A stretch of DNA of 62,832 bases, filler included, from Chrysochromulina tobinii (taxonomy: Eukaryota), in the NCBI GenBank assembly GCA_001275005.1. It is 5 parts of 5 records of this genome, joined end to end, with 100 filler letters (N's around TTAATTAATTAA, not from the genome) between each part and the next. Parts side by side here need not be neighbours in the genome. Positions count along the whole stretch, not along the records: positions 22,804 to 38,848 come from JWZX01001279.1; 4 more parts are not named here. The stretch is one strand, 5' to 3'. The notes under the pieces are model-generated. The model saw nothing but the letters and a program-made list of their open reading frames with translations. It was not told the origin of the DNA and made no database searches. Both the position numbers and the translations under genes were made by a program. Shown here in pieces: positions 2,733 to 57,959 of the stretch; the first letter of the stretch is position 1, and the number at the start of each line of letters is the position of its first letter.

Positions 2733-3070
2733 CCACTTCCTTCTTCGCCCTCGTCGGCTTGACTCGTGTGAACCCGTTTTTTTCTAACGAAAAGCCAGGA
2801 CGTCGCTCCACGAGCGGCGACTTTGGGAAATTCATTTCCGAAAGTCTAGCACGAGCCAACTCGTCGGCCCCCTTGTCCCCCTTGCCTCTCACACTCGCGG
2901 AGCAATTTTTCGCGAGGTCGCGATCTCGCCACGCGTGACGCCGTCGACCGCGCACCCACCTGGGGCTGTATGGCTACTTTTCACATCAGCTCCTCATACA
3001 TGTAGCGTGCTCACGAAAAATAGCCTCCAAACATTTACGGCCGAGGAAGATTCGATTGCTGACATGTGCG

Positions 3071-4426
3071 CTACCCTTTGTTGAGCTGCCCCGCGTCATA
3101 GTCGGCCTCCAGGTAGAAGGCGACGGACACGTTGCGACCGCCGAAGAAGCGGCCGTCCAGGTCGATGTACGCCTTCATAGCGGCGGCCTGCTTGGAAAAT
3201 TTGACGAAGATGCGCACCGCGTCCTCAGACGCGGGCGCCTCGGTGGTCGGTTGCTCAAAGATGGTAACGCCGAGCACCTCGCCGTACTTGGAACACTCCT
3301 CGCCGATCTCGCCCGAGAGCTCGTCGTCCACCTCGCCCGGTCCCACCATGTTATGAAGCATGAGCACTCGGCTCGGACGGCCGCGAAAGGTTACGGCACC
3401 CTTGGCGGCACCGGCGGCGGTGGCCACGGTCGCGCCGCCGGTCACTCCTCCAGCCGCGCCAGGCGGCGGTGGCGGCGGTGGCGGTGGTAGCGCTGAGGGC
3501 AGCGGCGGGCGGCCCATGGCGCGCTCGGCAGCGTTGACGATCACGCCTGTGGCGCCATCACTCTTCCTGGCGACGAGTGGCGTACGCATCCCCTGCCCAT
3601 CCTTACCCAGGCCCTGGCCCTCACTCCATCCCATCTTCTGGATCATGCTCAGCCCCGGGTCCGCCTCGGCGTCTTCGATGCCGCGGACGCCGGCACCGCT
3701 GCCGTCGCCCACGCCGCCGCCATCGCCGGCGACGCCTCCGAGGCCGCTGCTCACCGACGCAGATTGCAGGGCAAACGGCGGCGGCGGCGGCGGTGGAATT
3801 CTTTGCCGCTTCGAAGCAGGATCGTCCGAACCGGCACCAGATGTAACAGGCGGCGGCGGCGGTGCGAGCGGCGGCGCGAGAGGCGGCGGCGGCGGCGGAG
3901 CGAGTAGCGGCTGCGACGAGGAAGCTGCCGGAGGCTGTGAGGCAGGCGCAGCAAGGCTGGCGAGCTTGCGGCTGGTCTCGGCCTTCTTTTGCTCGAGCGC
4001 CTCCTCGAGCTCCTTGGCTTTTTTCTTCGCCTCCAGCTCGCGAACCAACTCTCTGTAGTCGTTCGGTGTCGCCGGATCGTACGGCACCTTGATGTCCTTG
4101 AACCAGCCGTGTGTGCCAAGCAGCACACTGGGCCCAGCGCTGCCAGCGGTGGGCAATGGAGACGGCAGCGGCGACGGCAGCGACGCAGGCACGCTGGCTG
4201 GGAGCAAGCCCTTGATCACTTCAGCAGGCTTGGAAGCCTTTTTTCCTACCTTGGGTGGCGCGAGCTTCAGCGCTGCCGTGAGCACTGGCGAGCTAGCTGG
4301 CTTTTCAGCAGTCACTGCGACCACAGCTGCTGGAGCTGCGGCCGAACTCGCGCTACTGCTGCTCGCGGCGGCCACAGGCGCACCTGCTTTGCCCGATTTG
4401 GGGTCGAGGCCGGCGAGCGCGTACAT
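3071..4426 (-). CDS. RBM17: Splicing factor 45 (SPF45/RBM17/DRT111-like): SF45 motif, G-patch, C-terminal UHM-RRM
   Basis: PYDPATPNDY motif; G-patch MIQKMGWSEGQGLGKDGQG; UHM LHNMVGPGEVDDELSGEIGEECSKYG...AYIDLDGRFFGGR; start ATG uncertain. Confidence 0.88.
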   Translation of the reverse strand: MYALAGLDPKSGKAGAPVAAASSSSASSAAAPAAVVAVTAEKPASSPVLTAALKLAPPKVGKKASKPAEVIKGLLPASVPASLPSPLPSPLPTAGSAGPSVLLGTHGWFKDIKVPYDPATPNDYRELVRELEAKKKAKELEEALEQKKAETSRKLASLAAPASQPPAASSSQPLLAPPPPPPLAPPLAPPPPPVTSGAGSDDPASKRQRIPPPPPPPFALQSASVSSGLGGVAGDGGGVGDGSGAGVRGIEDAEADPGLSMIQKMGWSEGQGLGKDGQGMRTPLVARKSDGATGVIVNAAERAMGRPPLPSALPPPPPPPPPGAAGGVTGGATVATAAGAAKGAVTFRGRPSRVLMLHNMVGPGEVDDELSGEIGEECSKYGEVLGVTIFEQPTTEAPASEDAVRIFVKFSKQAAAMKAYIDLDGRFFGGRNVSVAFYLEADYDAGQLNKG

Positions 4427-4589
4427 TATCAGCGCCTCGTCGCGGCGAGGCCCTCGCGACCTTCCTCGCTCCACAGGGTTGCGGATGTACCATGGTAGCG
4501 ATTGTACGATGATCGAAGTTGGAGCTGTGAAGTTAAAAAGTCTGTGAATGGGGCGCATTGAGTTGAGGTTGAACGCTTCGCACTTTATT

Positions 4590-6524
4590 CTACAGGTCCT
4601 TCACAGTGCTTGCATGGTCAGCCTGCTCGGTGCCCGTGTGACGCTTGCGGACGACAGTCAGGAGCTCTCGTCGTTCGGAAATGATTCCCATCACCTCCTC
4701 GCGGGTGCACTCAATCGTCTCCGACGGCTCCAGCCCAGGAAATTCGTTCCCGGACTCAGCAGATGGCGAGCGAGCGAGCACCTCCAAATAGTCGCACCAC
4801 CTGCGAAACTGCTCCTCTGGCACTGCGGTCTGGAATAGCCGGTGCAGCGCCATAGTCTCTGGGCTCTGGGTCGAGCTGTCGAGCTGCCGGGCCCGCAGTG
4901 CGTCACAAGCCTGGTGTCGCTCCTCACGCTTCTGCCGGCGGCTACGGTGGCGCGGAGGGGTGGAGTCGGTGCTCGATCTACGTGCGAGCATCCCGGATGG
5001 ACCAAGCACGGCATCCAAGCCCACATCCACGTCGAAATGCTCGGATGCAGCCTCGGCGCCCTCGCGTCGCATCTCGACTGCATGCGCAGCCAAAATGTCC
5101 GGCAGGCAGCACGCTGCATGCACCCGGCCCAAATTTGGAAGGCAGCACGCTGCATGCACTCGGCCCAAATTTGGAAGGCAGCACGGCGCCAATACCAACG
5201 CCTCGACGCTCTGGTGCAAAGCATGAAACGCTCGGATCGTGACTGTGGAGAGCTCGCCGCATAGATGCATACCGAGTAAAATGGTGCGACGGCCTCCTCC
5301 GGCCGCTTGAATCAGCTCGTCCAATGACCCGACGAATGTCGGTGAGAGCAGATCCATCTGCGTGTACCGCACGTTGCTGAGGCCGGCCGCTGCAAAATGC
5401 GGTAGTCGCGTGGGCTCAATGATGTCGACTGCGGAGATGAGACACGTGGGGAAGAGGACGCCCAGAATGACGCTCACGAAGCTTGTGCCACAGCACAGGT
5501 CGACGATGTGACATGGAGATGCCTTGCGATGGATCTCGCGCTTGATCTCGTGATCGAGCTCACAAATCTCGTCATCGATCCCGCCATCGAGCTCACGGAG
5601 GATGCACCGCGTCGCCTCGAGCATTGCAAGTGCCTCTGTAAGCTCCCTCGTGAAGCTGTGCCGGCGTGTCGGCGAGTTCACGAAGTGGAGCGCCGGCGAT
5701 GAGAGCGTCGCGAGCTTGGACTCATCCACACCGCGACTTGTGAAGAACTGCGTGATCAAGTGCTGCTGCGCGGGAGTCATGGAGCTTGGCAGCAGGCCGC
5801 GCGTCGCCTTAGCCCGCAGGCTGCCAAACTTGGACGCGCCGTGTTGGCGACCGCACGTCGCACAGGTGAAGCACTTGTGGAGCACGACTGCGCCAGCAGC
5901 CAAGCACGGCGTGGCAACGTTGGGCACGCGTGGAGGAGGAAGCAGAGGTTTCCTAAGCGCTCGACGTGGCGTAGACGCATGCGGTCGTTGAGAAGGCTGA
6001 CCCATCGAATCTAACACTTTGAGCACGCTTGTTGCAGAGATCCGAGCGGCTGCAGCGAGGGCGGCGACGTCGGTCTCACGCGACTCGTCGCTCCAAGACT
6101 GCATGCCTCTGCCCTCGTTGGCCTTCCACTCGATGACGACAAGCCAAGGCCTCGGACGAGCCTCTTTGCTCGCAGCCCACTGGTCCGTGACAAAACGGCG
6201 GTGCGCCTCGGATTCACAGAGGCTGCCAGGTGTGGTGGCAGTGCCATCCGCGGTTAGGTGCACGAGCATTTCGTCGAGAGATTCGGTTGACGCGAGTCGT
6301 TCATATTTGATGAGAGAGTCCCACGCAAACCACACCCAGACCACGTCCGAAGCGAAGGAGGATCCCGGAACAGTAACGACGAGCTTGACGCGATCCGGCC
6401 ATTCCCGCTGCTCGGCAGTCGACAGGCGCTGGGTGAGCGGCAGCGACCCTTGGAGAATAGCTGCTCTGGAAGCAGCAGCGATCGGCTGCACGTCGGTGGC
6501 TCGAGCTTCGACCACCGAGCGCAT
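4590..6524 (-). CDS. Putative SAM-dependent methyltransferase (Methyltransf_32-like)
   Basis: HIVDLCCGTSF (motif I), GMHLCGELS and LAPCCLP motifs; in-frame 36-bp duplication at ~5104-5184; start uncertain. Confidence 0.7.
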   Translation of the reverse strand: MRSVVEARATDVQPIAAASRAAILQGSLPLTQRLSTAEQREWPDRVKLVVTVPGSSFASDVVWVWFAWDSLIKYERLASTESLDEMLVHLTADGTATTPGSLCESEAHRRFVTDQWAASKEARPRPWLVVIEWKANEGRGMQSWSDESRETDVAALAAAARISATSVLKVLDSMGQPSQRPHASTPRRALRKPLLPPPRVPNVATPCLAAGAVVLHKCFTCATCGRQHGASKFGSLRAKATRGLLPSSMTPAQQHLITQFFTSRGVDESKLATLSSPALHFVNSPTRRHSFTRELTEALAMLEATRCILRELDGGIDDEICELDHEIKREIHRKASPCHIVDLCCGTSFVSVILGVLFPTCLISAVDIIEPTRLPHFAAAGLSNVRYTQMDLLSPTFVGSLDELIQAAGGGRRTILLGMHLCGELSTVTIRAFHALHQSVEALVLAPCCLPNLGRVHAACCLPNLGRVHAACCLPDILAAHAVEMRREGAEAASEHFDVDVGLDAVLGPSGMLARRSSTDSTPPRHRSRRQKREERHQACDALRARQLDSSTQSPETMALHRLFQTAVPEEQFRRWCDYLEVLARSPSAESGNEFPGLEPSETIECTREEVMGIISERRELLTVVRKRHTGTEQADHASTVKDL

Positions 6525-6673
6525 CACGGCGTGTTGTGAATTGGCTGTGGAAGGGCACGCAGGAGGTGTAGAGGAGGGCGAACGAGTGATTTCACGCAAC
6601 TTTCTGGTCGCCCGTAGCGTCACTCCCATAAAGTACGGAATGGACGGCGCAATGGGACGGCCCCTGGGACCTC

Positions 6674-7165
6674 GGGTACCGGTACATCGGTACATGTATT
6701 CATGGCCTTTCAGGGGGTCCCGCCAATTGGTAGGTAGCTTGGTCAGTTACTCTAGAGGCCTATTCCGGTAGCCCTATTCACGGCCTTCTTGTATACCGTT
6801 TAGACTGTACCTAGACTGTACCGGTACCGTTTTCGCGGCGCGGTCGTCCATGTCGCGTGTGGCGTGTGCCCGTGACAGAGTCCCGTGTATGTCAACTCGT
6901 GTGCACGTTAACGCGACACACGCGACAACCGGTGCTACCTGCTACGCCTACGGCACTCAATTGACGGCTCTGTTACTACCCGCTCAGAATACACACGCCA
7001 ATTGACACACGCCTTACATGACTACCGGTAAAAAGACACCGGGGGGAGCCGGGACACACACTACCGGTACTGTACGGTTCAAACCGTATGATACCGGCTC
7101 GTGTGTCCCCCCGGTGTTTTACCGGCTCAAAAACACCGTAGGTACGGTAAATTTACCGGTACCTC
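6674..7165. repeat. ACCGGT/GTAC-rich palindromic repeat cluster containing the AAAAAGACACCGGGGGGAGCCGGGACACAC motif
   Basis: Motif at 7024-7060 with an inverted partial copy at ~7101-7125; the same motif is at 59870-59895 and 60225-60300. Confidence 0.65.
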
Positions 7166-7308
7166 GCCAACCGAATTATTCGTTGTTTTGGCTCGCACGC
7201 GGCTCGCACTGTGTGGTCTCACGGAACATCCCGAAGCGGGCCGTCCTGCGTCGCCGTTCGCTGGTTTTGGTGCGAGCTCCAAACGGGGAGCCGCTGACTC
7301 GCGTGGAA

Positions 7309-9363
7309 ATGTACGGGGCCCTCCGCCGCCAAATCACTCCCGCGGCACCCACGTCGCTCGCTCCTGCAACCGAGCCTTTTCCTGCCGACAAGAAGTCGTA
7401 TGGACCTCTGGATCGTGGATCGATAGTGGATTCGGAAAGTGGTTCACCCTCTGGAAAATGGCCCAGTAAGGCCTTCGTACTATTTCGCCTGTTTCTGGCC
7501 CTGCCCGCGCCCATGTTCTTATTGTTCACCGGCACTCAATACTCACGACGTGCTCAAGTCGCAGGTTGGACCGGGTCCTTCACAGAGCTCGGCGCAGGGT
7601 ATACCCTTGGAGTCCAAGTCTGGCTCGCTTCTTCTCCTCCTCTCGTGCTATCGCTCCTCCTCGCCCAGATCGATTATACTGGCGAAGCCCTTACCGAGCG
7701 CGTCTTTCCATGGCCCACGGCGTTGGAGGTTGCGTTGTATCTCGGCTCCATCTCTGCCTACCTCGCGCTTTACTATATCGAGCGGTTGAATTTGTTCGCG
7801 TTCGGCATTTTCATAGCCTTTATTTGCTTTGGTGCTTTCCTCTATTTTGCTAAACTCGTCTTGCGTGACGTCAAGAAATACCAAAAACTCGAAAAGTACA
7901 AGTCCTTCGTCCGCTCGCAAGCAGTGCGGGCCGGCATCATCACCTTGATAATGGCGTGCGTGACCACCTTTGCTCTGTCGGCGATGCTGCGGGTGCCAAT
8001 TAAAGCGACTCTGCTGAATGTATTCGTTGAGTTGTCACTCAACGGCATCGCCTGTGCGGACCAGGCTGCGTTTGTATCGGCGTTCGAGGCATCTTCCGCC
8101 AATGCTAGCTGCCCTGCCCTGCCCAATTGCGGCTACGCGACCTACGAGGACCTGTGCCAGGCCGTGCAGTACGCTCCGATGGTGCGAGCCCTGACTGACG
8201 ACACTTTTGACGTGAACCTCTTCATTTTAGCATCCTGGCTTATCATCTCAATTCTCATTCTCGGCACTGGCCGTGCACGCGCAAACGACGGCTACTCGGA
8301 CTTGCTCTCTCCACACATGCTCGTTGCCATTCTGCTAGGCCTTGTGTCACTCATAATGACGCTCTTCTCATTCATGCGCCTCCTCCTCCTTGTGCTAAGA
8401 CTTTCTGTACCGCGCCCGGCCCCTTACTTTGACAGAGCGGACCTAATGAACACGTACGAGTTCCCTTTGACCTGCTATGGCAACTGTGTTTCTATCTGGT
8501 TTTACTGCAAAAATGTTGCTCTGCTCTTACTCATCCTCTTCGCACTCAACTTCGACTTCTTCAAAAAGTATGCGTTCCCGGTGGAGCATGCCATCAAGAA
8601 GCTCCGAGACCAAGGGTGGGACGACGACGCACCCTCCTTCTACTTTATCCCCGCCGAAAGGGTGCGCAAGTGCGACACCAAGTCGCTGCCTCGCATGCAG
8701 ACGCTGCGCAAGGACGGCCACCTAACGAAGAAAGAAATTCCCCTCGCATCCGCGTTTCGTGGCGGTGGCATCATGGCGAACATCCTCTTCGTGAGCCATC
8801 GGTGGGAAGAGCATCATCAGCCCGATGTCAACGGCGAGCAACTCAAAGCCATCAAGGCGTATCTGGAAAAGCACTCTGAAATCGAATGGGTCTGGTTTGA
8901 TTACTCGTCGATGCCCCAGAAAGTGGATGGCGTTGACACTAGGACTCACGAGGATAAGGCCGAGTTCCAGCTCATGCTTGCCGCCATCGCCGACCTTTAC
9001 CTGACTGCGCGCGTCCTCATTCTCCTCGACGGGTCGTACGCGTCCAGGTTCTGGACGCTGACGGAGGCATGGTGCTCGATGCAGACGGTCACGTCCAATG
9101 GGCTCCGCCCCGCAACGGAGGCTGAGCTTCGCTACACGATTGAATGTATCCACACTGCTGACGAAACGCATGATAAGGAGGGGCTCGTTAAAAAGGTGTC
9201 CAAGAAGACGCCCAAGGAAATGTTCGATCACCTCAAGAATCCGGACGTGATCGTTACCAATGCAAAGGACAAGGAGACCATGTTGCCCAAGATCCTGGAG
9301 ATCAATAGGCATGTCATTGAGAAGTTTCCGAACCAAGCGTCACCGCCAGCAAGCGAGCAGTAA
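7309..9363 (+). CDS. Multi-pass membrane protein with C-terminal HET-like (heterokaryon-incompatibility/TIR-related) domain
   Basis: About 8 hydrophobic segments, then ILFVSHRW...WVWFDYSSMPQ...LYLTARVLILLDGSYASRFWTLTE, the HET-domain pattern; ATG 7309 preferred because the upstream ORF part reads through repeat DNA. Confidence 0.7.
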   Translation: MYGALRRQITPAAPTSLAPATEPFPADKKSYGPLDRGSIVDSESGSPSGKWPSKAFVLFRLFLALPAPMFLLFTGTQYSRRAQVAGWTGSFTELGAGYTLGVQVWLASSPPLVLSLLLAQIDYTGEALTERVFPWPTALEVALYLGSISAYLALYYIERLNLFAFGIFIAFICFGAFLYFAKLVLRDVKKYQKLEKYKSFVRSQAVRAGIITLIMACVTTFALSAMLRVPIKATLLNVFVELSLNGIACADQAAFVSAFEASSANASCPALPNCGYATYEDLCQAVQYAPMVRALTDDTFDVNLFILASWLIISILILGTGRARANDGYSDLLSPHMLVAILLGLVSLIMTLFSFMRLLLLVLRLSVPRPAPYFDRADLMNTYEFPLTCYGNCVSIWFYCKNVALLLLILFALNFDFFKKYAFPVEHAIKKLRDQGWDDDAPSFYFIPAERVRKCDTKSLPRMQTLRKDGHLTKKEIPLASAFRGGGIMANILFVSHRWEEHHQPDVNGEQLKAIKAYLEKHSEIEWVWFDYSSMPQKVDGVDTRTHEDKAEFQLMLAAIADLYLTARVLILLDGSYASRFWTLTEAWCSMQTVTSNGLRPATEAELRYTIECIHTADETHDKEGLVKKVSKKTPKEMFDHLKNPDVIVTNAKDKETMLPKILEINRHVIEKFPNQASPPASEQ

Positions 9364-20274: not shown

Positions 20275-20925
20275 GGCCAAGAAAGGCTACCAGATTCGGA
20301 TCTGACGGCTGCGATTCCCCATCGTGTCTTCGACGGCGATCTCCGCATCCACAAAAGCCATTCCCATAATTGCTTTGTGTGAAGCCCTCACTACACCCCC
20401 CCCCGAGTTTTCCAGAAATAGCACTCGCAAGCACTGCTCACTCTGCACTCGACCCCTCGAGGTATCGAGGTGTGATGCACTTGTGGTGACTTGATGAATG
20501 GACTTGATTAGCCCCCAGAGGATTTAATTTGACAGGCGGCCAGAGCATAGGAAAGCATTAGCGGTGAGTTTCCCCTTTCCCGTCCACCTGTTCCCGCGTC
20601 TACAGTACAATTTACTGTCTACTGTCGCCCGTCGCCCGAGGTTCCATTCGAGGTTCGTTTCGCGCGCGTTTTGAGATGCTCAAGTCGAATCCCGGCGTGG
20701 TCCGTGGAGCCCATGTTACATGAAGCGTTTTATGGTAAGAGGCTCGTTTTACGTGTACGCCCTTTTTTCGGCAGGCACGTTTGGACTCAAATTTTTCACC
20801 CGCGCCAGATTATGTCGTCGCCTCGGTTACCGTGAAATGCCTGTGAAGCGCGGCGCACCCGAGACACACGAGTGTAAAGACACTGGGCCGAGCAGCCGCG
20901 GAGCCTTGCTCTGCGTTCCGAGACC

Positions 20926-22703
20926 ATGGCAGCGGTCAAGGCGGACTTCAACTTCGCCGAGGATCTCAAGAAGTTGCGAGAGAAGACAGATGACTGGACG
21001 ATGGCGCAGGATGCAGCGCTCGCGAAGGCCCTCGAAGGCTTCGCGGCCAAGTTTGAGGACAAGCTGCGCGTGGCGGACGAGTCGATGGCCGAATTTGGGC
21101 TCAATCTCTCGCGCGCGGAGGTGCGGCTCGCCAACGCCGCCAACGGGTTGCGCGCGCTCTCGCGCACGCAGTTCCTCGAGCACCGCGTGTACGATGAGGA
21201 GGAGCCAGCGGCACCCGAGGAGGGCCCGGCAGCGGCCGAGCCGGTCCCGAAGACGGAGGCGGAGCAGCAGGCGGCTCTCGTGCGCGACTGCACGGCGCTC
21301 GTCAAGGGCGGCCTGCACTTGATCGCCAGCTTCCCGCTCTCGCTCGACGCGGAGGAGGACGAGAATGCGGCGGTGCCCGTGGCGGCGGTGCTGCCGGGGC
21401 ACTCGTTTGATGAGCTCGTGCTGCCGTTCGTGATTGGCACGCCCGAGTTTCTCGCCAAAGATTCGTGCGGCCTCTTCGAATACGGGGAGCGCAGGACGTT
21501 GCGCACCACCGAAATGACTGAACAGGCCGAGCTCGAGGAGGAGGAGGGTGAGGACGAGGACGACGAGGACGAGGACGGGAACCGCGCAACGGGCGACGCC
21601 GGCACAGACGAGGAGGACGAGGAGGACGAGGAGGACGAGGAGGACGAGGAGGAGAGCGACGACGAGAACGACGAGGACTGGGATGAGGAGACCGATGCGG
21701 AGCCTACGCCTCGAGCGCCTCCGAAGCCGATCATGAGGACGGAGAAGTCAGTCGCGAAGGAGAAGTCGTTGCTCTCGTCGATGCTGGCCGCTCAGGATGA
21801 CGACTACGACGAGGACGAGGACGAGGATGAGCCGACCCCGGCGACCTACGGCCGTGACTCCCCTGGCGACAGCGACGATAGCGACGCCACCCTGCCCGGC
21901 GGCCCCATTGCAAAGGGTCCGAATAAGGCGGCTGCGGCCGCGGTCATGTCGCGTCGGGCCCCGGCTTCGCGGGATGACGACGACGACGAGAGCGACGTGG
22001 CGATGCCCGCGGGCAAGGGCGCCAGCTCCAAGGCTGCGCCGCCGCCCCCGAAGCCGCCCCCGAAGCCGGCCGCTCCGCCTCCCCCCGACGAGGAGGAGGA
22101 GGAGGACGACGACGAGGATGATGACCCCTTTCGGTGTCGGTGGCGGCTTCTTTGGCGGAAGCGGCGGCAAGGCCGCCCTCCCGAAGCGGAACTCGCTCTT
22201 TGCAGGGGGGGCTCTTTGGCGAGGAGGGTGCCGCCGCCGCCTGCCAAGCCTGGCTCCAAATCGGGCTCCGGGCTCACTGCCGCCGCCACCGCCGCGCCCT
22301 CGGGCCCTCCTACAAAGGTGGACTATGCGTCTCTCTTTGGAGTGGGGGACGAGGAAGAGGAGACGCCGGTGATCGTCGCCGCCGCGCCTGCGAAGCCCGT
22401 CGCCTCGAGTGCGGGCCTGTTTGGGGAGGTGCCTGACGTCGCCAAGCCGACCGCAGCCAGCAGCGCGCTCGCTGTCGCCATGCTCGCGGCCGAACGATTG
22501 AAAAAGAAGCCGGGCGGCGGTGGCGGGCTCTTTGGAGGTGGCGACGGCGACGACGACGACGACGAGGACGTCTTTGGCCCGCCGCCGCCAAAAGCGCCTC
22601 CAAAGGCGCCGCCCGCACCCCCGCCGCCCGCAGCCCCGAAGCCGAAGCTGCACGCGAGCGGCGGCGGCGGCCTCTTTGGCGGCGACGACGACGATGATGG
22701 CGG
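20926..22703 (+). CDS. WASHC2: WASH complex subunit FAM21/WASHC2, 3'-truncated by contig end
   Basis: DWTMAQDAAL...LSRTQFLEHRVYDEE and LPFVIGTPEF head domain, then acidic low-complexity tail with LF-[G/D/E] repeats; probable homopolymer frameshift errors at 22125-22230. Confidence 0.8.
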
Positions 22704-22803
22704 NNNNNNNNNNNNNNNNNNNNNNNNNNNNNNNNNNNNNNNNNNNNTTAATTAATTAANNNNNNNNNNNNNNNNNNNNNNNNNNNNNNNNNNNNNNNNN
22801 NNN
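22704..22803. other. Artificial contig linker (N44-TTAATTAATTAA-N44)
   Basis: Identical 100-nt spacer with stop codons in all six frames occurs four times. Confidence 0.97.
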
Positions 22804-25800
22804 GCTGCTCCAGGCGAAGCTGCGCGATGCACCTGACGCGTTCGCGTCGCACTGGAACTGGGTCGACGCGTACCTCAGCCTCACTGAGAGGCCCGAGGTG
22901 CACCGCTTGCTGCGCCAGGCGATGATGGCGCGGCGAGCGCTGCTCCTCCTCGACGGGCTCGACGAGGCGGGCACCAAGCGCGCCGAGATTGAGCAGCAAG
23001 TCGTCGAGGTGCTGGCACCGCAGGGCCACGTGATGCTCTGCACCTCGCGGCCGGCGGGCGTGGACGAGGCGCGCTTTTCCGGCTTCCACTTGCTGAAGCT
23101 GGCGCCGCTGACCGAGGCGCAGCAGGAGCAGGCGCTGCTGCAGCGGCTGGGGAATGAGGGGGACGTGAGGCAGGTGATGACCTTTGTCGAGCGCATGCCA
23201 ACGAGCACGGACCCTGCTGCGCCGACAATGCGGCATCGCGTCACGGCCAACCCGCTGATGCTCTCGATGGTCGCGTCGGTCTTCGAGATCCGCAAAGGGC
23301 TGGGCATGCCGAAGACGGTCGCCGAGCTGTACGCGTTCGCATCGGACGCGATGCTCGCGCGCGGCGGCGTCGTGACGGCAGAAGTGCGCACGCTGCTGGA
23401 AGTTGTGTTCTTCGAGGCGCACGTGGCGCAGGCGCGCGTGATCACCGAGGTGCAGCTCCTCCGCGCGGCGCTGGGCGCCTTTGCGCCGCCGGGGACGCTC
23501 GCCAACCTGGATGCGAAGGTGGCGAAGATGTCGAAGGTGTCGAACCTCTTCAAGACGTTCAAGGGCCGGCCGGAGAAGGGCCACTACGTGGAGCTGCTGG
23601 ATGGCGCGTGGAAGGGCCAACACGGCGTGATCGTCGAGTACGACAAATCAAGCACTCAATATAAGGTCAAGCTGGCGGACGGCACAACGGGGTGGCTGTA
23701 CCCCAAGAAGCTCGCATCGTCCGGGCTGGATGAAGCTGCTTGCCGGGCGCACATGGACGCGGAGCGCCTTCCTGCCCTGGACTGCGCGGTCCAGGCGCTG
23801 CGCGATGAGGAGCGGGCGGCGGTCGCGCAGGTTCGCGAGCGATTGGGGCAGGATAGGCTCCCTCTTCTCAGCCTGCTGCAGGTCGAGCCGCTCCAGATGC
23901 AGTCGGCGCACCTGTCCTTCCAGGAGTTTTTTTCCGCGCAGGCCATCTGCTCGGGCAAGTACCGCCTCCCTGAGGGGTCGCCGCCACCGTGGCAATGGCC
24001 GGCGTTTTGGGCCAACGCGGTCACGCTCGGCAGCGAGATGGGCGACGCCTTTGGCAAGGGGCTGAAGCAGACGGCCGGGGTGGATGATGAGCTCGACCTG
24101 AGCAAGAAGCTATTTGGGGGAGATCGGCCGACGATGGTCGCTGCCGTGGCGCAGCTGATGCGTGGGCTGGTGTCGCTCAGCCTGCGAGGGAACGAGTTGA
24201 CTGATGGCGAGGGTGTGAAGATGGTCGAGGCGCTCCAGGCGAACACGAGGCTGAGGCAGCTCGACTTGGGTGGCAACGAGCTCGGCGTGGGGAGCGGCAA
24301 GGCGATGGTCGAGGCGCTCAAGACGAACACGACCTTTCGCACGGTCATGTTGGACGGCGCCGTTCTCTCGATCGCAGAGCTCACTCTGCTCAAGAACAGC
24401 CTGGACGTTGAGTCGGCCACGATGCTCGCCAAGATCGGCGCGGAGAGGGGCATCATGCTCTCGGGCATGAAACGCGACCAGACGAAGGCCGACTTCTCGA
24501 GCAGGGGCCTGCAACCCGCCGACGCTATCCTGATCGGGTCAGACCTGCAGTTCATGGCGGTATTGACCTCGGTGGACCTCCAGTACAACTCCATCGGCTA
24601 CGATGGTGCCAAGGCGATCGCGGAGGCGCTGAAGGTCAACGCGGTGGTTACCACCCTCAACCTCGGGAACAACTCCATCGGGGTTGAGAGTGCCATCGTG
24701 ATCGTGGAGGCGCTGAAGGTCAACACGGTGATGACCACCCTCTTCCTCTCAAACAACAGCATCGGGGATGAGGGTGCCAGGGCGATCGCGGAGGCGCTGA
24801 AGGTCAATGCGGTCCTGACCAAGCTCTGGCTCGGGGGCAACGAGATCGGGGACGTGGGTGCCAAGGCTATCGCTGATGCCCTCAAGTCAGGCATGGCGGT
24901 CTTGACCACCCTGAGCCTGTACTCCAACAACATCGGCGACTACGGAGCCAAGGCGATCGCGGAGGCGCTGAAGATCAACGCGATGGTGACCACCCTCTAC
25001 CTCGGGAACAACTCCATCGTCACAGCACGCGAGAGGGTCGGGAGCTTGTTCGGAGTCTCCCCCTTGGTCATGGAGCGCGAGGGTGCGACGACGGGGAACG
25101 CCGCTGCCTCCGATCAACAAAGCCAAGAGAACGACGCCCAGATTCAGGAGGCTGCGCAGGCCCTACAGGATGAGCGCAGTTTCGGACGCGTCGTTGCCAT
25201 GGCTCCTGTCAGTCAGTACACAGCTGACGAAGGGAAGTCCGCCTGCACTACGATCGCCTGCTTTGGAGCGCTCGAAATGCTCCAGAGGCTTTGCACGTTT
25301 GGTGTGGGCCTAGTTGCGCAACCTGGCAGCCTTGCTTTGAGCCCTCCACACCTCAACTCAGCTGAGCTTGCAGATGCGCTTGTTCGGGTGGTCAAACAGG
25401 GAGTGGACGCTCACGTTCGAGCGCTCAGCCATAATCCAGCATCTCAGCACCGCTCTTCAAGCGAAGTCATGGATGCGTTACCTGCGACTCACGAGCTGCG
25501 ACAGAAACTATTCCGCGGCACTTGCAGCGAATACTTGCTGTCAGGCAACGAAGATGATCGGGCAGCGTGCTTCATGCAAGCGCTTCAGCCGCCGGCTGCA
25601 CCGCACACGGCAGCCAGCTACGTGCTTACGAAGCCGCCGGAGACGGTGCTTTGCGTCATCGGAGCAGACACCAGTACACCGTGTTTTATGTTGGACTTGC
25701 ACCCGAACTCGTCGCGCAGGCTGGCTGGTGCCCATGTTTTGCGCTTTGACTGCGTGCAATCCTTGTGCACCGCGCTCTGTCGCCGCTTTCCGGTGGTGCA

Positions 25801-26677
25801 CCTCCCTGATGTGGATCCGGGGGACTGGCAGCTGGCATACATGCGCCAATTCAGCGCGATGCCGCTGATGCTGACAATACCGCTGACCGACAACGAGCGC
25901 AACTTGATGCAGTGCCAATGCATGCAGGATGGAGAGCTGATGGTCGATCCAGTTCTTGCTGTGGATGGGCATACATACGAGCGTGAATACATCTTGCAGC
26001 ACTTTGAAGCCGAGCGCGAGCGCATTGCTGCTACGCATCAGCCTGCTCACGTACAAGTTCGTCACAACATCAACTCACCGCAGGGAGGCCAAATACTTGT
26101 TGAGCTGCTCGTTCCCAACCGGTTCGCTCTGACCGCGATTCAACAGGCGGTAGAAGGCGGGCGCATTGGTGATGGCGAAGTGTGCGATTGGCGTGAGCGC
26201 CGTGAAGCGGTGGTGCGTCAACGGGCTCAAGGTGGTCTAGGTGGTCAAGGTGGTTTAGGTGGTCAAGGTGAGGCCGTCCTGGCGTTGCAAAAGGAGTTTG
26301 CTGTCCTGTTGCCACCCGAGCGGCCCCGGTCACGCCTCAAGGAGGGCTTCTTGATCATCTCTGCAACCGCCGCACGGATGCTCCGCGGTGGTACATGGTG
26401 CTGTTCAAGGACCGGCTCAGCTGGTACAGGAATGACTCGAAGAAATGACTCGACCCCGATCGTGGTGCCGGTCGCCGTCGCGCTTTCCGCGCCTACCGCG
26501 CCTACCGCGCCTCCCGCATCAGACGACGGCGTCGAGATGCTCGCCGCCATGTTCCCGACATATGACAAGGAGATCCTCTCGATCATCCTCGCCGACCACA
26601 GCAACAATGTGGAGGCGGCCATGGATCAGCTGGTGCTGCTGACTCGAGACCAGTTGACCCTGACGTCTCCCAGTTGA
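22804..26677 (+). CDS. 5'-truncated NACHT/NLR-like protein (Walker B, SH3/KOW-like insert, NLRC3-type LRRs) in frame with putative VTD-like cysteine protease, U-box and CUE domains
   Basis: LLLLDGLDE, CTSRP, NPLMLSMV, HLSFQEFF; 28-aa LRRs (LxxNxIGDxGAKAIAEALKVN) to ~25018; SQY...GKSAC and MLDLHP; U-box ELMVDPVLAVDGHTYERE...LVPN; CUE LAAMFPTYDKEILSIILADHSNNVEAAMDQL; may be two genes with a second ATG at 25070. Confidence 0.75.
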
Positions 26678-27599
26678 CCCTGCGATTCGGGAGCAGTTGC
26701 GGCAATTTGCGGCCACGAGCTACGCACCCAGAGCTGAGCATGCTGCATTCTGGATGGTCTTCGTTGGCATGTATGGATGGTTGCTCGCCGTGTGCAGTGG
26801 TCGCCGGTTTTCTCAGCAGGATACCGGTCCGGTCACGGCTCGACATCAGAAGTCTATAGACGTATAGAGGTAGCTACGCACACGGCCGTACCGATAGATT
26901 CAAGATTCTACATTAAACTAATGATAGAAGATAGATACACGTTCTACATAAACGCAACACGCGCGAACCGGCGTTTTTCCGGCGACCGGGCCGACGCGGA
27001 CAGCTCGGCCCCGTGCTCATAAAATTTTCATAACAACTTTCGCACTTCGGGAGTTTCGCATTTCCGTTCGGGAGTCCGGTCACTTGCCGCCGCCGATGGC
27101 GCATGGGCATCCTCCGCGCAGGCCGCAGCTCGAGAGCTCCAGAGCCGGGGCCCGCCCACAAAGTGCCACACGCGTTGCCCCCCCACGCTCTCGCCCATGG
27201 CTTTCGCCACAACCACACTTTCAGCGATCGCCACACTCCTCACGCCCTACTCACGCCCACCACAGAACATACAGCGCTGTCCACTCGCAGCAAGAGCCAA
27301 AAGTCCCTTAACATGCGCAGCCTAGTCGTCCCAATCTACATATCATCGTGCTCCTCCCAGCAAGATGTTCGCCAAAATACATATCAGATTCGCCACCGCA
27401 TCATACCCGGCTCCAGGCCAGCAGCATGCACCTATAAGTGTGACTTGCCTAATTCCGCCACGTTGATGTGCTAACAGCGATCTGGTCCAATCTCGCCTTC
27501 CATTCTCGCCTTCAATTCACAGCGATCTGGTCCAATCTCGCCGATGGACGAGACTCGTCCTCGGTATCCGTGCAGCCGTGATGCCATTCACGCCTTCCA

Positions 27600-38848: not shown

Positions 38849-38948
38849 NNNNNNNNNNNNNNNNNNNNNNNNNNNNNNNNNNNNNNNNNNNNTTAATTAA
38901 TTAANNNNNNNNNNNNNNNNNNNNNNNNNNNNNNNNNNNNNNNNNNNN
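38849..38948. other. Artificial contig linker
   Basis: N44-TTAATTAATTAA-N44. Confidence 0.97.
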
Positions 38949-41900
38949 TCTCCTGCTCGCGGCCAGCTGCCATGCGTAGGTCTCCCATTCCCATGACACG
39001 GGCGGCGCACGTCGCGCGGACGCAGATGGTCTGCAGAGCCGCGTGCTCAAGCCGCACGACTCGTGCCAAGCCCACCACCACGCCCTGCGGGGCGCCGCTC
39101 GAAAGCACGAGCAGCTGAGCAGGCGGGCGCGACGCCGCAAGCTCCTGGACCAGAGCGAGCGCGAGCACGATGCTCTGCAGAGCTGGTGCTTGCGACGTTT
39201 CCACACAAAGTATGAGCACCACTTGCTGCACACATACGTTCGCCTTCATCATCTGAGGCGGCGAGGAGTGCTCGCCATCTGCTCCCTCTTTCAAAGCGAG
39301 CACCATGACTCGCTGATGCGACGTTGAGCCGGGATGCTCGTGGTGGTGGTGGTGCTCCGCCCGAGCTTGGAAGCACGAGCAGTAGATTGTTGTCGCTGCC
39401 GCCGACGTGCGGCCCTGTGGCATCCAAGAGAAGGTGCGCCGCCTGTAGAGTAGTAGTGGGGCCGAGAGGCTACTGGTTTGCGGTGAGAGCCGGCTCTCAT
39501 GCGATTGCGTGACCACGCTTGCGATGGTGCCACTGAATCCAAAGGCGTTCGTGAGACCACACAAGCGCTGAGCGGATGCTATCTGGCCCACTCCGATTGT
39601 CATCATGCATCGACGGCAGTCTCGAATCACCTCGTGCACATGTGCATTGAGAACGCGCAGATGCGCATTGGGCGTCTGCGATCCTGTGTGGAGGATTCCA
39701 AGCGTCTTGAGTAGTCCAGGGAGCCCAGAGGCGCCCTCGGTGTGGCCGATGTTCGCCTTGAGGCCGCCCACAGCTACATCGTGTGCCGCTTCTGCGCCCG
39801 GCGCGTCGTTGAGAAGAGTCGCCCGCACTGTACCGATTTCGATCGGATCGCCGAGCCTTGTACCGGTGCCATGCGCCTCACACCAGCGATAGCCAGAGGC
39901 TTGGGCGGCTCGACTCGCGTGCGCCACCAGCCCGCGCTGAGCGGATCCATTCGGGGCGGTCAGGCTTGCACTTCGTCCGTCGTGTCGGACTGCAGCCCCT
40001 GCCACGATCCCTGCCACGGTGGCCTTCTTCGAGTGCTCAACGTCGTCGGCACGTAGGACGAGGGCGGCACACGCTTCTCCGCGCCCCATACCGTCTGCAC
40101 GGCTGTCGAATACGTACGATCTTCCGGTCGCTGACGTCAGGCCTGCACACGAAAAGAGCGCGTGCGTAGCAGGGGAGAGGTTGAGGTTCACACCCTGCGC
40201 CAGAGCCGCCTCGCAGTCGGAGTAGAGAGCCTGCAGAGCTGCACTGGTAGCTACCAATGCAGACGAGCATGCGGTATCGAATGTGATGCATGGCCCGTGC
40301 AGCCCCATGACATACGAAAGACGCCCCGCGGCAATGGCATTGCTGGCTGCCGCTAACGCGAACGCGCTGTCTTGAGCACGAGCCGGCCGCACGGTGACCC
40401 AATCGCACTTATCCACACCCAGGAAGACGCCTACCAGCGCTCCAGCACTCGATCGCGTAATCTGTGACATATGGAGCGCCATGTAGCCGTGCTCCAACAC
40501 CAAGCGCTGCGCCGGGTCCATGACGGCAGCCTCGGCAGCGGCGATGCTGAAGGCGGCACAGTCAAAGCACTCGGCAAGGTCCAAAAAAGCGCCAAGGCCG
40601 GCATGGGCTCCCTCGGGGGCGCGCCATCGTGATGCGGGCACATCTTGAACGTTCTCCACACTCGCAGCCCCGAGCGTCCATAACGCTCCGAGGCCGCCAA
40701 CGCGCCCTGAGGTCGCAATCGCTGTGCCGGTCACCACCACTCGAGGTTTCGTCACCACAGTTCGAGGGAGCGCGTGGCGATCCGAAGCCTTCGAGATGCC
40801 AAGGGATGTGGAGGCGGCCTCGAGGCTCAGGAAGCTAGTGATGCAACGCACCGAAGGGTGATCGAAGATCAGCGTGGCAGGAATGGGCACGGCGTCGTGC
40901 ACGAGCTTTCGCAGCCTGTCGCGCAGCTCGAGAGCGCCGAGTGAGTCGATGCCCGAGTCGGACAGAGGCGCATCGGCGTCCACCAGACGGCCAGCTAACG
41001 CCTCGACCACTCCCTGCACGACATCCATGCCGAACGCGCCGTGTTGGGCGTTGGACATCTCTGGGGGTGCAGCCGCCGCTGGGCTCGGGGCTTGCATAGC
41101 ACCAGAACCAGTACCAGTGAGAGCGGCTGGCAGGACTGCGAAGCAACTTGCGGGTAGACGCAGCGCCATGCACAGTGCCGCTGAGACCACGGCACGTGTG
41201 ATGCTCCCAACCCCAGCGCGCGCTGCATAGCCAATCTCGGCGACGGGGCCCCAGCTGATGCAGCTGGCGTGCAGGCTGCGTGCCAGCCGAAAGCCGGCCA
41301 TCGAGTCCAACCAGGCGTTGGCCGACGAGTGCGGCGACTGTCCGGCGGATCCCAGGAGCCCCGCTATGGATGAATACAAGCTGAAGAATCGGAGAGGGGT
41401 GCGGTGAGTGGCCTTGTGGAGCGCGACGGCACCATGCACCTTCGGCCCGTAGTGGAGGCTGAGACTCGATGCGTGTTGGTTGGTGAGGATACCATCCGAG
41501 AGCTGATGTGCCGCGTGGAAGACGCCACCGAGCAGTTGCTGGGCGGTGCGTTGCACGGCGCATGCAGCTTCGTGCACCGACGACTCGTCCGACACGTCGC
41601 ACCGGATGCGCTCCACGCTCGCACGCGACCTTTCGATCCACTTCCAATCCTGCTCACTGCCCGCTGAGACCCTGTCCGAGCGCGAGCAGAGGACGAGCCG
41701 TCGTGCGTATCCCCCCTCGACGAGCAGCCGTGCGGTGAGCAGGCCGAGGCCGCCCAGCCCCCCCGAGAACAAGTAGGCTCTCTCGGATCCGTCTGCATCC
41801 TTTCTGAGGGCGTCTGCATGCGAGCCCGGCCGTGGTCTGGGCGCTCGCCCTAATTGAGCGACCATGACTGCTTGTCGCATGCAGACGCCCTCAGCTTGCA

Positions 41901-44900
41901 TGCAGAGGCGCTGGCCGAAGCCGCTGTCTGAGAAGAGGCCTTCCCACTGCCGCCACGTCATCAACGGGCTGGCTTGCCCAATCCGCTCTGGGTCGCGGCT
42001 CTCAGCAAAGCGCCACCAGCCATCGGTCAGTCCAAACGTGATCTGAGCAAACATGTCGGCATGTGTGGCCTCGTTGACGAGGAGCAGGCCGCCGGGGCAG
42101 AGCAGTTTGGCGCAGTTGCGGAGCGTGCGCCCTACAAAGGGCGTCGCATGCAGCACATTGGTCGCGATCACGACATGGTGCTCGCCCAGCGCAAAGCCTT
42201 GCAGCGCAGGGTCCATGTCAATGTTGAGCAACGCATACTCCACGATGCTCTCCGCCTCAAAGCGCTGGCGAGCCCGCCGCAAGAAGCTCTCGGAGACGTC
42301 GGTGAACACGTAGCGCTCGCACTTTCCGCGTAGCACCGCCAAGATGCTCGACGCCGTACCGCCCGTTCCAGCTCCAACTTCGAGTACGACAAATGGGCGG
42401 GGGGCTGCTTGCAACGAGAGCGCTGTCTCGAGCGCAGAGACCAGGCATTCGTTGCAGAACGCGCCGCGGACGGAGTCCTCGTAGACGCTCAGGACGGCGC
42501 CCAACGACCCCTCAGGAAAGAGAGCCTCCTGGCTGGTGAGCTGGCCCATGAGCACTTCTGCCAGCCGTGAGCCACACCGCTCTGCAAGTTGCACTTCCGG
42601 CCATAAGAGCGGCTGCCTCGCGAGCACCGTCTCGCTCGTGACAAGAGGTGCAGCGTGGGCGGCGGCGCAGTCGTCTTGTGCGGCCCGGAGCGCTGTATCA
42701 AGCGCCCGAAGGAGGCACCTGTGATGCCAAAGGGGCACGGCCTCGCCCTGCACCCTTTGCAACGCATGGCGAGCGTACTGCAGACATAACTGCTCAAGTT
42801 GCGCAAAGGCTGAGTCTAGGCGCTTACGGGCATCGAGTTTGGCAGCCGCTTCGGCCATATGGGCATCGAGGTGATCGCGAAGGGTCGCGAAGCTGATCTG
42901 CCAGGCGCTCGCGCCAGCCGTGACGATCGATGCTAATCGAGGCACGTGCACAGCCATGCCGTGAATGGTCGTGCCGTGAATGGTCGCTTCTAGCTCAGTC
43001 GACTCAGTGGATCCCAGCCATGAGAGATCGCATCTCGGCAGCGCAAGCACATTCGCCCAGACGGGCAGACGCAGAGCTTGCGCTGCACCGCCACCCACAT
43101 CGAGGCAGCACACCGCGGCCCCAGAGTGCTCCTTACGAGCGGTGCGTGCCAAACCCCACAGTCCAGAGTGCGCCGCACGCACGCTCGACATGGACACAGG
43201 CTGCGTGTTCGACGTGCAGAGAAAGATGGGGGTTGCGTGCTGCTGCATCATCGCTTGGCATTGCAGCAGGGCAAGGGCAGCATCAACGACCGGCAGCTCA
43301 CACGCGCACGAGCCAGCTCCATGTTCGAGTGCGAGGATGAACAGAATTCCACTCCACTGACGGGTGCCGTGCAGCAGTGCGAGCATACGCGCTCGCGACG
43401 GCGCGCGTTCCATACGACCGAGGACGAGGAGCCTCTCGGATGGGGGCTCTCTGACCAACGATCCATCGGAAGTCGCGACGCGTACCCAGCTCATTCGATA
43501 ATAGGCCCCATCCTGTCTGGTGGCGCCCGTTGCGGCTGCGGCGCGCGAGGGCATAGAGCGCTCTGGTACTACTCTCCAAGGAAAGGCGATGCGGCAATAG
43601 ACGAGGGGCTGCTGTGAAAGGGGCTGCTGTGAAAGGGGCGGGGATCCCGTGCGTTGATGCAGCACCGCATGTGCAATGGTGCCACTGTATCCAAAAGAGC
43701 TGATCTGGCCTGCTAGCTCCAGCGCCGCATGACTGTCTCCCGCCCTGCCCAGTTGCGTGGGCATCGCCAGCATGCGGCCGCGAAGCCCATGGCGCACATG
43801 AGGGTTGAGAATGCGAAGCTGCGCATTCGGAACGGACGCGTGCTCTTGTAAGGCGAGCACAAGCTCAAGTAGTCCGACGATTCCAGCCGCAGGCTCTGCA
43901 TGGCCCAATGTGGCCTTGACACCACTGGCTGCCACCCGCATCCACTCACGCCCAGGGCCGAGCACGGCGGCAGAAAAGGAGCCAACCTCAATCGGATCGC
44001 CGAGCGACGTGCCCGTGCCGTGCATCTCCGCGAGCCTGGGCGACCCAGATCGCAACGCCGCGTCGGCCAATGCGGCCACGAGAAGGCTCTGCTGCGCCCG
44101 GCCGTTAGGCGCCGTGAGGCTGGCCGATTTGCCGTCCTGCTGGACCGCACTCCCGTCGAGGATGGGCGCTGTGATGGGCGCCGCGCTGGGCGCTGTGATG
44201 GGCGCCGCATTCGAAGCGTGAGGTACCGGTTGCATCACCAGGCTGGCGCATGCATCGGCGCGAGCGTACCCGTCAGCACGCACATCGAAGGTGTGCGAAC
44301 GGCCTCGCTCGGACGTCATGCCAGCCAGCGCGAGGTTCCTACTCGCGGCCGGCGCAAGCATGAGCATGACGCCCGAGACCAGACCCAAGGTACACTCCTT
44401 GAATTGAAGAGCACGCCTCGCAGCGTGGCACGAGACGAGCGACGCGGAGCAAGCCGTGTCGCACGAGACACTCGGACCATGCAGACCGAGCACGTACGAG
44501 AGGCGGCCCGAAGCGATGGCGAGGCTCGAGCCTGTGGCCGTGTATGCGCTAGCCGCCGCCCCGGCCGTGGCGAGCACCTGCGCAAACTCTGTGGAAGCAA
44601 TGCCAAGGAAGACGCCAGTGAGCGTGCCCTCGAGCGCGGAGCGTCGCAAACCGGCTTCGTACAGTGCGGAGTAGCCACGCTCGGCCAGCATGCGATGTTG
44701 AGGGTCCATCGCGGCGGCCTCGACGGGAGAGATGTGGAAGGCGTCGTTGTCGAAGAGCTCCTCACCGTTAACGAACCCGCCTTGGCGCATGCGCCGCTCA
44801 ACGTGCGGAGAGAGCCCAGCCGCCACAGCATCATGGTTCCATCGCACTGCAGGGACCTGCCGAATCACGTCCGTGCCACACGCAGCCAAGTGCACGAGCG

Positions 44901-48750: not shown

Positions 48751-48850
48751 NNNNNNNNNNNNNNNNNNNNNNNNNNNNNNNNNNNNNNNNNNNNTTAATT
48801 AATTAANNNNNNNNNNNNNNNNNNNNNNNNNNNNNNNNNNNNNNNNNNNN
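48751..48850. other. Artificial contig linker
   Basis: N44-TTAATTAATTAA-N44. Confidence 0.97.
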
Positions 48851-57786: not shown

Positions 57787-57959
57787 CGCCCTTCCAAAAT
57801 GAGTGCGGACTCCTGTGAACGCCGGTCCGGAGAACGAGGCGCCTCCGAACCCTAGCTGTGAAATCAGCAAATCTGGTGTTTTTACTTTGGCCGTTTTGCA
57901 CTTTGCTCGTAACTCCGTCAAACGATTGCGCATTCTCAGCGAAGGCTTGGGACGCCTGC

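What the first reader, a model, noticed from the sequence alone, without database searches (positions are those of the whole stretch)
22804..26677. NACHT-LRR (NLR-like) protein read in frame into the DUB/U-box/CUE module
Seen: one uninterrupted frame. The LRR array stops mid-repeat (LGNNSI|VTARERV at ~25018), and codon third positions become visibly less GC-rich afterwards. An SH3/KOW-like insert (KGHYVELLDG...GVIVEYD...YKVKLADG) also lies within the NACHT-associated region. Inferred: a recent chimera resembling plant NLRs with integrated domains, possibly algal innate immunity coupled to ubiquitin signalling. The alternative is a truncated NLR that happens to abut a separate gene starting at 25070.
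Basis: partly seen in the sequence, partly recalled or inferred. Interest (0 to 1): 0.7.

Follow-up and report, generated by a model that had tools for sequence, protein, structure and literature searches.

The report
Algal NLR-like gene captured deubiquitinase module
In a single-celled alga related to Chrysochromulina, a NACHT-LRR gene is cut mid-repeat and continues in frame into a copy of a host ubiquitin-editing gene; the join recurs in RNA and DNA runs, and it likely works like a plant NLR immune receptor with an integrated bait domain, though no function was tested.

Summary
The fusion is real. One frame runs 22805-26677. The LRR array breaks mid-repeat at 25018, and GC3 falls from 0.88 to 0.63. 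The join is bridged without mismatch by contigs in 4 of 4 RNA runs laid on it (probably one culture) and by a variant allele in a separate aquatic DNA run. The window is a contig edge; identical loci give a predicted 2,292-aa protein: HET-like (motif-level only), NACHT, LRR, VTD-family deubiquitinase, U-box, CUE.

The tail is a 1.3-kb copy (90-92% identical) of a host zf-RanBP/WWE/VTD/U-box/PH gene. It came with a likely 5'-UTR leader; later its PH domain was frameshifted and a CUE fragment inserted. The SH3/KOW insert is family-wide, not part of this event. Other members of this Chrysochromulina NLR-like family carry Vint/Fic, dynein-stalk, DUSP or SH3 domains.

Best reading: a young NLR with an integrated ubiquitin module, likely acting as bait (0.5); a neutral tolerated chimera is close behind (0.35). 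Immune function is untested. The DUB keeps its Cys/Asp-x-His triad but has Leu at x, seen in 0 of 107 distant homologs. Phasing of the CUE end to this copy needs long reads.

The parts
22805..26677 (+). In-window part of the chimeric ORF (1,290 aa, 5' end cut by the contig edge). Predicted full gene in L002: ATG 557, exon 557-2109, 83-nt GT-AG intron, exon 2193-7518, about 2,292 aa
22805..23400 (+). NACHT NTPase core: Walker B LLLLDGLDE 22940-22966, sensor-1 TSRP 23042-23053, NPLML 23249-23263. Walker A APPAAGKT lies upstream at L002 3550-3573
   Evidence: motif names from established NACHT knowledge (recalled)
23576..23683 (+). SH3/KOW-like insert in the winged-helix region; a family-wide variable slot
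23909..23929 (+). HLSFQEF winged-helix His motif (motif label recalled)
   Evidence: sequence; used as the slot anchor
24167..25018 (+). LRR array (28-aa RI-like repeats from 24560), cut mid-repeat and lacking the family's C-terminal cap
25019..25126 (+). Captured leader read in frame: likely 5' UTR 25019-25069, ATG at 25070, then MEREG... to 25126; homologous to the leader of the HET-fused sibling copy
25160..25900 (+). VTD-family deubiquitinase domain: Gln 25214, Cys 25244, Asp 25694, Leu 25697 (Ser in sibling copies), His 25700
25922..26150 (+). Degenerate U-box (CQCMQDG where L005 and P0004 have CPI; 8-aa deletion in an inner loop)
26330..26443 (+). Start of the donor's PH domain, shifted out of frame by 2 extra bases at about 26358
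26444..26626 (+). Inserted CUE-domain fragment (GC3 0.82) that replaces part of the PH domain; a short direct repeat (AATGACTCGA) lies at its left join
26627..26677 (+). Return to donor PH sequence in its original frame (VLLTRDQLTLT), then the stop codon
26681..26754 (+). Further donor-gene remnant past the stop, presumably 3' UTR

Best explanation
This is one transcribed chimeric gene in which a Chrysochromulina NACHT-LRR family member is cut mid-LRR and joined in frame to a copy of a host VTD-deubiquitinase/U-box gene plus a CUE fragment, and it likely works as an NLR with an integrated ubiquitin-handling bait domain. Shown: the open frame, the donor gene, bridging of the 5' join, the VTD fold and catalytic triad, and other foreign domains in other family members. 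Inferred origin: the donor (zf-RanBP, WWE, VTD, U-box, PH, FYVE-like) first lost its N-terminus behind a new leader. That intermediate was likely captured twice with its 5' UTR, once by a HET-like gene and once by this NLR, probably by DNA repair with short-homology template switches. A later 2-base insertion plus a CUE insertion removed the PH/FYVE tail. Inferred action: the NACHT is an ADP/ATP switch held off by the LRR. The VTD/U-box/CUE block would bind ubiquitin or ubiquitin-targeting effectors of viruses or ingested bacteria. Its perturbation would release the switch and oligomerise the N-terminal HET-like domain. The block is more likely a binding bait than a full enzyme, given Leu in the Asp-x-His motif and a degenerate U-box.
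For: Join bridged with 0 mismatches and at least 31 bases each side in 4 of 4 RNA runs laid (X1, X2, X3, X6), and 25126/25127 in all four too. A separate aquatic DNA run, X13, holds a 130-nt contig over 24955-25090 with 1 mismatch and an in-frame 6-base deletion. L001, L002 and L003 are further assemblies with the same join. RNA contigs in X1 and X2 cross the CUE join, and X2 crosses the 2-base insertion. Donor copies are 90-92% identical over 25127/25146-26444. VTD: the family profile hits 8ADB at E 1.1e-32; the model has pLDDT 89 and Foldseek ranks 8ADC, 8ADB, 8ADD and 2J7Q first. Without the 2-base insertion the CUE join would read straight into a stop. Of 28 family members scanned (picked for unusual length, out of 65), 7 carry foreign domains above Pfam cut-off: Vint+Fic (2), dynein stalk inside the LRR with the cap kept, DUSP, kinase, SH3_3, PUB. 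The slot insert is less conserved than both flanks in 30 of 30 close paralogs, 78% against 92% and 90%.
Against: No test of immune function, ligand or enzyme activity. Private changes in the captured module are 11 non-synonymous to 6-7 synonymous, not distinguishable from neutral (p 0.12-0.21). The HET-fused sibling shows dN/dS near or above 1 in 6 of 8 distinct comparisons listed and 0.66 in 2, so such captures can drift. The same module also fused to a non-NLR gene, so shuffling may be genome-wide rather than NLR-specific. The N-terminal HET-like label has no Pfam, NCBIfam or PADLOC hit, and Atlas scores are at most 0.82. 3 of the 7 foreign-domain homologs (P0050, P0051, P0071) lack a NACHT match, and all are short-read gene calls. 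The RNA runs are contigs, without strand or start sites, and probably come from one culture.
Confidence: 0.5

Rival explanations
1. A real, transcribed but functionless young chimera. The genome shuffles gene fragments often, and this NLR paralog lost its LRR cap by an insertion that happened to be in frame. It drifts as a tolerated by-product in a large redundant family.
For: Leu at the x of Asp-x-His in 0 of 107 distant VTD homologs (Ser 103, Thr 2, Pro 2). PH frameshift and lost tail. U-box below cut-off. Selection test not significant. The sibling HET fusion shows relaxed dN/dS. The same module fused to a non-NLR gene.
Against: The X13 allele's indel at the join is in frame, and the chimera occurs in a second, later sample. 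Catalytic Gln, Cys, Asp and His are all kept. The CUE piece is in frame only thanks to a second event. The family repeatedly carries ubiquitin-system domains: DUSP, PUB, OTU just below cut-off.
Confidence: 0.35
2. Two abutting genes. A stand-alone VTD/U-box/CUE gene starts at ATG 25070 from its own leader, and the truncated NLR only reads through into it as a minor product.
For: 25019-25069 resembles a leader and is followed by an ATG. A 34-nt piece at 25059-25092 forms a branch shared with another sequence in X1 and X2. Contigs cannot show starts.
Against: No stop lies between the LRR and the tail, so any NLR mRNA that crosses the join encodes the fusion. RNA contigs cross the join in 4 of 4 runs. 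The NLR has no other 3' end in the assemblies.
Confidence: 0.1
3. Assembly chimera: the assembler joined paralogous repeats, either at the LRR or across the 1.3-kb multi-copy module, so the NLR-to-CUE architecture does not exist as one molecule.
For: The module is multi-copy. L003 differs from the window at 17 codon positions of the module, most of the listed ones matching sibling copies, and the HET copy has different tails in L007 and L008. No single laid contig spans the whole gene.
Against: The 5' join runs from LRR into sequence unique to this locus and is bridged in five runs. Three assemblies link the NLR to the CUE end. The risk is confined to phasing of the 3' end.
Confidence: 0.05

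Closest known systems
Plant NLRs with integrated domains (NLR-IDs, e.g. RRS1-WRKY, Pik-1-HMA; review PMC9528084, passages read)
   Same: STAND NTPase plus LRR with an extra host-derived domain in the same polypeptide; here after the LRR, as in RRS1; extra domains at several positions across the family.
   Different: NACHT rather than NB-ARC; unicellular haptophyte; HET-like rather than TIR/CC N-terminus; no linked executor NLR shown; no effector or immune output known; the integrated part is a three-domain ubiquitin block.
Fungal HET-NACHT NLRs (HET-E, HET-D, HET-R; review PMC10197012, passages read)
   Same: NACHT switch with an N-terminal domain whose motifs resemble HET (resemblance recalled, not confirmed by a profile).
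   Different: LRR instead of WD40 repeats; SH3/KOW slot inside the winged-helix region; C-terminal captured enzyme block.
VTD deubiquitinases, Waddlia Wc-VTD1 / protist-fungal K6-preferring branch (PMC9741609; PDB 8ADB, 8ADC)
   Same: Fold, Cys plus Asp-x-His triad, SAC and TKP motifs; relatives carry UBA, UIM, NZF, CUE, U-box or FYVE. That paper reports fungal VTDs fused to an RBR ligase, like the DUB-plus-ligase donor here.
   Different: Fused behind an NLR-like LRR; Leu at x; haptophytes are not named in the parts of that paper read; chain specificity untested.
Chrysochromulina tobinii 'Protein nlrc3'-labelled NACHT-LRR family (e.g. Ctob_015781, Ctob_012414, Ctob_001341)
   Same: 84-87% identical over the queried region, with the same SH3/KOW slot; Ctob_001341 also shares the HET-like N-terminus and its exon join.
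   Different: Capped members end in an LRR cap; 0 of 65 homologs returned carry the VTD, U-box or CUE tail.

Membership tests
NLR (NACHT-LRR STAND receptor) | P-loop NTPase motifs: Walker A, NACHT-type Walker B, sensor 1 | tested here: met
   APPAAGKT at L002 3550-3573, LLLLDGLDE, TSRP; motif definitions recalled
NLR (NACHT-LRR STAND receptor) | NACHT profile above Pfam cut-off | tested here: inconclusive
   19.4-20.7 bits against 26.7 (E 0.001-0.0004); paralogs P0026, P0033 and P0068 pass
NLR (NACHT-LRR STAND receptor) | C-terminal LRR sensor | tested here: met
   LRR_6 E 7.7e-24; truncated and uncapped
NLR (NACHT-LRR STAND receptor) | N-terminal effector domain of a known class | tested here: inconclusive
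   HET-like motifs by eye; no Pfam, NCBIfam or PADLOC hit; Atlas at most 0.82, unnamed clusters
NLR (NACHT-LRR STAND receptor) | Ligand-triggered oligomerisation and immune output | not testable with these tools
   needs experiments
NLR with integrated domain (NLR-ID) | Extra host-derived domain in the same reading frame and transcript | tested here: met
   single frame; donor at 90-92% DNA identity; RNA contigs bridge the join; full-length mRNA not seen
NLR with integrated domain (NLR-ID) | Integrated domain acts as bait for a pathogen effector | not testable with these tools
   no effector known
NLR with integrated domain (NLR-ID) | Linked executor NLR (common in plants, not universal) | tested here: inconclusive
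   only 556 bases upstream of the ATG are held; the eight downstream ORFs inspected by eye show no NLR
VTD deubiquitinase | VTD papain-like fold and sequence profile | tested here: met
   profile to 8ADB E 1.1e-32 (profile dominated by distant homologs found); Foldseek 8ADC E 7e-8, TM 0.57/0.67; Atlas Herpes_teg_N clusters 0.95, family on 11-17% of members
VTD deubiquitinase | Cys plus Asp-x-His catalytic triad | tested here: met
   Cys 25244, Asp 25694, His 25700; x is Leu, found in 0 of 107 distant homologs
VTD deubiquitinase | Ubiquitin-chain cleavage | not testable with these tools
   needs a di-ubiquitin assay
U-box E3 ligase | U-box profile above cut-off with intact first loop | tested here: inconclusive
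   19.1 bits against 21.4; donors score 21.8-33.6; the CPI loop is present only in L005 and P0004
CUE domain | CUE profile above cut-off with MFP motif | tested here: met
   24.8 bits against 21.1; MFP in the sequence

The most novel reading that the evidence does not exclude
A unicellular haptophyte has independently evolved a plant-style NLR-ID immune system. An expanded HET-like/NACHT/LRR family keeps capturing host domains at fixed slots (inside the winged helix, inside or after the LRR), with repeated capture of ubiquitin-system parts (VTD/U-box/CUE here; DUSP, OTU, PUB elsewhere) as baits for effectors of giant viruses or ingested bacteria. This locus would be a capture caught midway to becoming a decoy.
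Probability: 0.25. Interest if true: 0.8.

Novelty: new variant of a known kind. Interest (0 to 1): 0.55.

Why it matters
NLRs with integrated domains are described mainly from land plants. A haptophyte family that captures domains the same way would show that the strategy arose independently in a single-celled, virus-infected, bacteria-eating alga, and the captured domains would list candidate host targets of its parasites. The donor, a sibling capture and a second allele are all in hand, so the birth of an integrated domain can be followed step by step. It also places VTD deubiquitinases in haptophytes. If the chimera is neutral, it is a well-documented case of gene-fragment shuffling and of modest interest.

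Tried and rejected
No whole genome is held, and the loci's records could not be searched, so copy number, donors of the leader and CUE pieces, and an upstream partner NLR stay open. The leader and CUE segments match nothing else in the window or the nine loci. Viral origin of the module: 14 pattern matches in viral contigs, 0 confirmed, and its GC3 equals the host donor's, so rejected. Single-sequence and 8-sequence searches of PDB found no VTD, and the 8-sequence fold had pLDDT 35; only the 111-sequence alignment worked. A splice at the join was not seen: no joints listed. Depth is not used as evidence: junction contigs were not shallower than the next leader contigs (42.9/30.4, 23.3/15.4, 5.8/3.9, 9.4/6.0), and 26854-27003 had no RNA cover in X1 and X2 while DNA runs had it, but contig depth cannot rank parts of a gene, so these are weak hints only. 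X13 showed no cover at 26254-26403 (85% of the run read); no conclusion drawn. Exact look-up of the fused protein and of the 25070-start protein found neither, which says little. HET identity was not confirmed by four resources. Earlier scan findings: nothing in three look-ups. The wide VIA structure search did not run.

Full report
Setting. The window is five contigs joined by N/TTAATTAATTAA/N spacers; the finding starts at a contig edge, 22804. The NACHT-region homologs that carry an organism name are Chrysochromulina tobinii and C. parva proteins, 79-87% identical over the matched part. A sibling of the captured module's 5' join is in C. tobinii KOO52922.1. The source is therefore C. tobinii or a close relative.

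Observation. One frame runs 22805-26677. Pfam finds LRR and CUE above cut-off, and NACHT and U-box below. The 28-aa LRR register stops after LGNNSI at 25018, without the cap that ends many paralogs. GC3 drops from 0.88 to 0.63 at a best change point of 25103; this matches the donor gene's 0.64.

The whole gene. L001 and L002 are identical to the window and extend it 5'. They show an ATG at L002 557 whose peptide matches paralog starts, an 83-nt GT-AG intron whose join matches the C. tobinii model P0014, and Walker A. The predicted protein has about 2,292 aa. Its N-terminal part has HET-like motifs by recall and is weakly related (via paralogs, E about 1e-8) to the HET-like domain of the sibling fusion. 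No library confirmed the label.

Is the join real? RNA-run contigs bridge 25018/25019 with no mismatch in 4 of 4 runs laid on it (X1 and X6 24944-25088, X2 24944-25054, X3 24900-25088), and bridge 25126/25127 too. These runs are all 2019 mixed-culture libraries and may be one campaign; contigs give no strand or start. A 2025 aquatic DNA run, X13, holds the join with one mismatch and an in-frame 6-base deletion, and holds 26602-27170 with small differences. The CUE join is crossed in X1 and X2. The weak point is phasing across the 1.3-kb multi-copy module: L003 is a mosaic inside it, and the HET sibling's tail differs between L007 and L008. L001, L002 and L003 all link the NLR to the CUE end.

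The donor. The region 25127/25146-26444 is 90-92% identical to three other loci. Two encode zf-RanBP, WWE, the DUB, U-box, PH and a FYVE-like finger (L005, L006). One has the module behind a HET-like domain (L004, L007, L008). The same DUB-plus-U-box and/or FYVE layout occurs in distant proteins, so it is the ancestral gene. The NLR copy and the HET copy share a leader (GCACGCGAGAGG...TTCGGAGT..CCCCTTG) that the parent lacks. This points to an intermediate, N-terminally shortened gene captured with its 5' UTR (inferred). At the 3' end, two extra bases at about 26358 shift the PH frame, a 183-nt CUE piece replaces part of PH, and short repeats flank the joins, consistent with repair by template switching (inferred). 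In the old PH frame the CUE join is a stop; in the shifted frame it is open.

The DUB. A profile search gave 151 relatives. I aligned 107 of the shorter distant ones plus four close sequences. That profile hits Wc-VTD1 (8ADB) at E 1.1e-32. The model has pLDDT 89, and Foldseek ranks VTD structures and herpesviral M48 first. Gln, Cys, Asp and His are kept. The x of Asp-x-His is Leu here, against Ser in all sibling copies and in 103 of 107 distant homologs. The Leu allele is present in X1, X4 and X13 as the minor share at that site, but its phase is inferred. Private changes are 11 non-synonymous to 6-7 synonymous, which does not separate selection from drift.

The family. 65 homologs were returned; none has this tail. 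The SH3/KOW insert is matched in 53 of 65 (query-biased). It is less conserved than both flanks in 30 of 30 close paralogs, and the slot spans 82-652 aa in the 42 sequences that could be measured. Of 28 members chosen for unusual length, 7 carry foreign domains above cut-off. P0033 has a dynein-stalk fragment inside its LRR with the cap intact, in three full-length members. Three of the seven lack a NACHT match, and none of these fusions was checked against reads.

Mechanism and verdict. The best reading is a young NLR-like receptor with an integrated ubiquitin block acting mainly as bait (0.5). Rivals are a neutral chimera (0.35), two genes with read-through (0.1) and mis-phasing (0.05). Structure, origin and transcription across the joins are shown; signalling is inferred from plant and fungal NLR knowledge.

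Literature. PMC9741609: parts 1, 2 and 5 of 9 plus passages. PMC9528084, PMC10197012 and PMC7145615: passages only. PMC4580454, the C. tobin genome paper: passages; its main text has 0 occurrences of NACHT, NLR or leucine; its supplements were not read and could list these genes. Searches pairing haptophyte or Chrysochromulina with NLR, NACHT or NLRC3 returned 0 papers. Broader searches, seen as listings, showed no title on haptophyte NLRs or on an NLR with a VTD domain. The library lacks most subscription journals. Novelty: new variant of a known kind; interest 0.55.

Noticed in passing
window 22704-22803, 38849-38948, 48751-48850, 60637-60736: N44-TTAATTAATTAA-N44 spacers: the window is five concatenated contigs, so adjacency across them means nothing.
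   Followed up: yes
L004/L007/L008 (L007 2852-7027); P0002, P0086: A second in-frame capture of the same VTD/U-box module and leader, behind a HET-like domain (GC3 0.92, then 0.62); its join is also in C. tobinii KOO52922.1, there mislabelled as a TRAPP subunit.
   Followed up: partly
window 7006-9363 (+): A 785-codon ORF with a hydrophobic N-terminal part and a C-terminal HET-like domain 51% identical to the HET-like part of the sibling fusion; no Pfam hit.
   Followed up: partly
P0033, P0026, P0027/P0050, P0040, P0047, P0051, P0043: NLR-family homologs with a dynein stalk inside the LRR, an unannotated 450-aa tail, Vint+Fic, DUSP, a roughly 490-aa insert in the winged-helix slot, OTU-like plus kinase, and PH.
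   Followed up: partly
window 25059-25092: A 34-nt branch contig in RNA runs X1 and X2 shows that another sequence shares the ATG-25070 region; possibly the leader's donor gene.
   Followed up: no
L005 4804-9489 and L006 2730-7121: The two parent VTD/U-box genes end in different Cys-rich tails; L005's looks IBR-like by recall, echoing fungal VTD-RBR fusions.
   Followed up: no
L002 about 1880-2040: A segment inside the N-terminal HET-like domain resembles an RRM fold by recall; present in several paralogs; untested.
   Followed up: no
one search hit list: The VTD model also matches uncharacterised giant-virus proteins (Indivirus, Catovirus at E about 3e-4; Tupanvirus, Yasminevirus at about 2e-3).
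   Followed up: no
window 38893-48798 (-): A 3,301-codon modular type I polyketide synthase fragment (KS, KR, DH, ER, MT, ACP).
   Followed up: no
window 53659-58164 (-): Ankyrin-kinase-RING multidomain ORF of 1,501 codons, another possible shuffled gene.
   Followed up: no
window 20878-22703 (+): Acidic, proline-rich ORF just before the spacer, FAM21/WASHC2-like by recall; no Pfam hit; on another contig and not part of the NLR gene.
   Followed up: partly
window 60888-62831 (+): ORF with Cys/His fingers resembling a non-LTR retroelement protein by recall; runs off the window.
   Followed up: no
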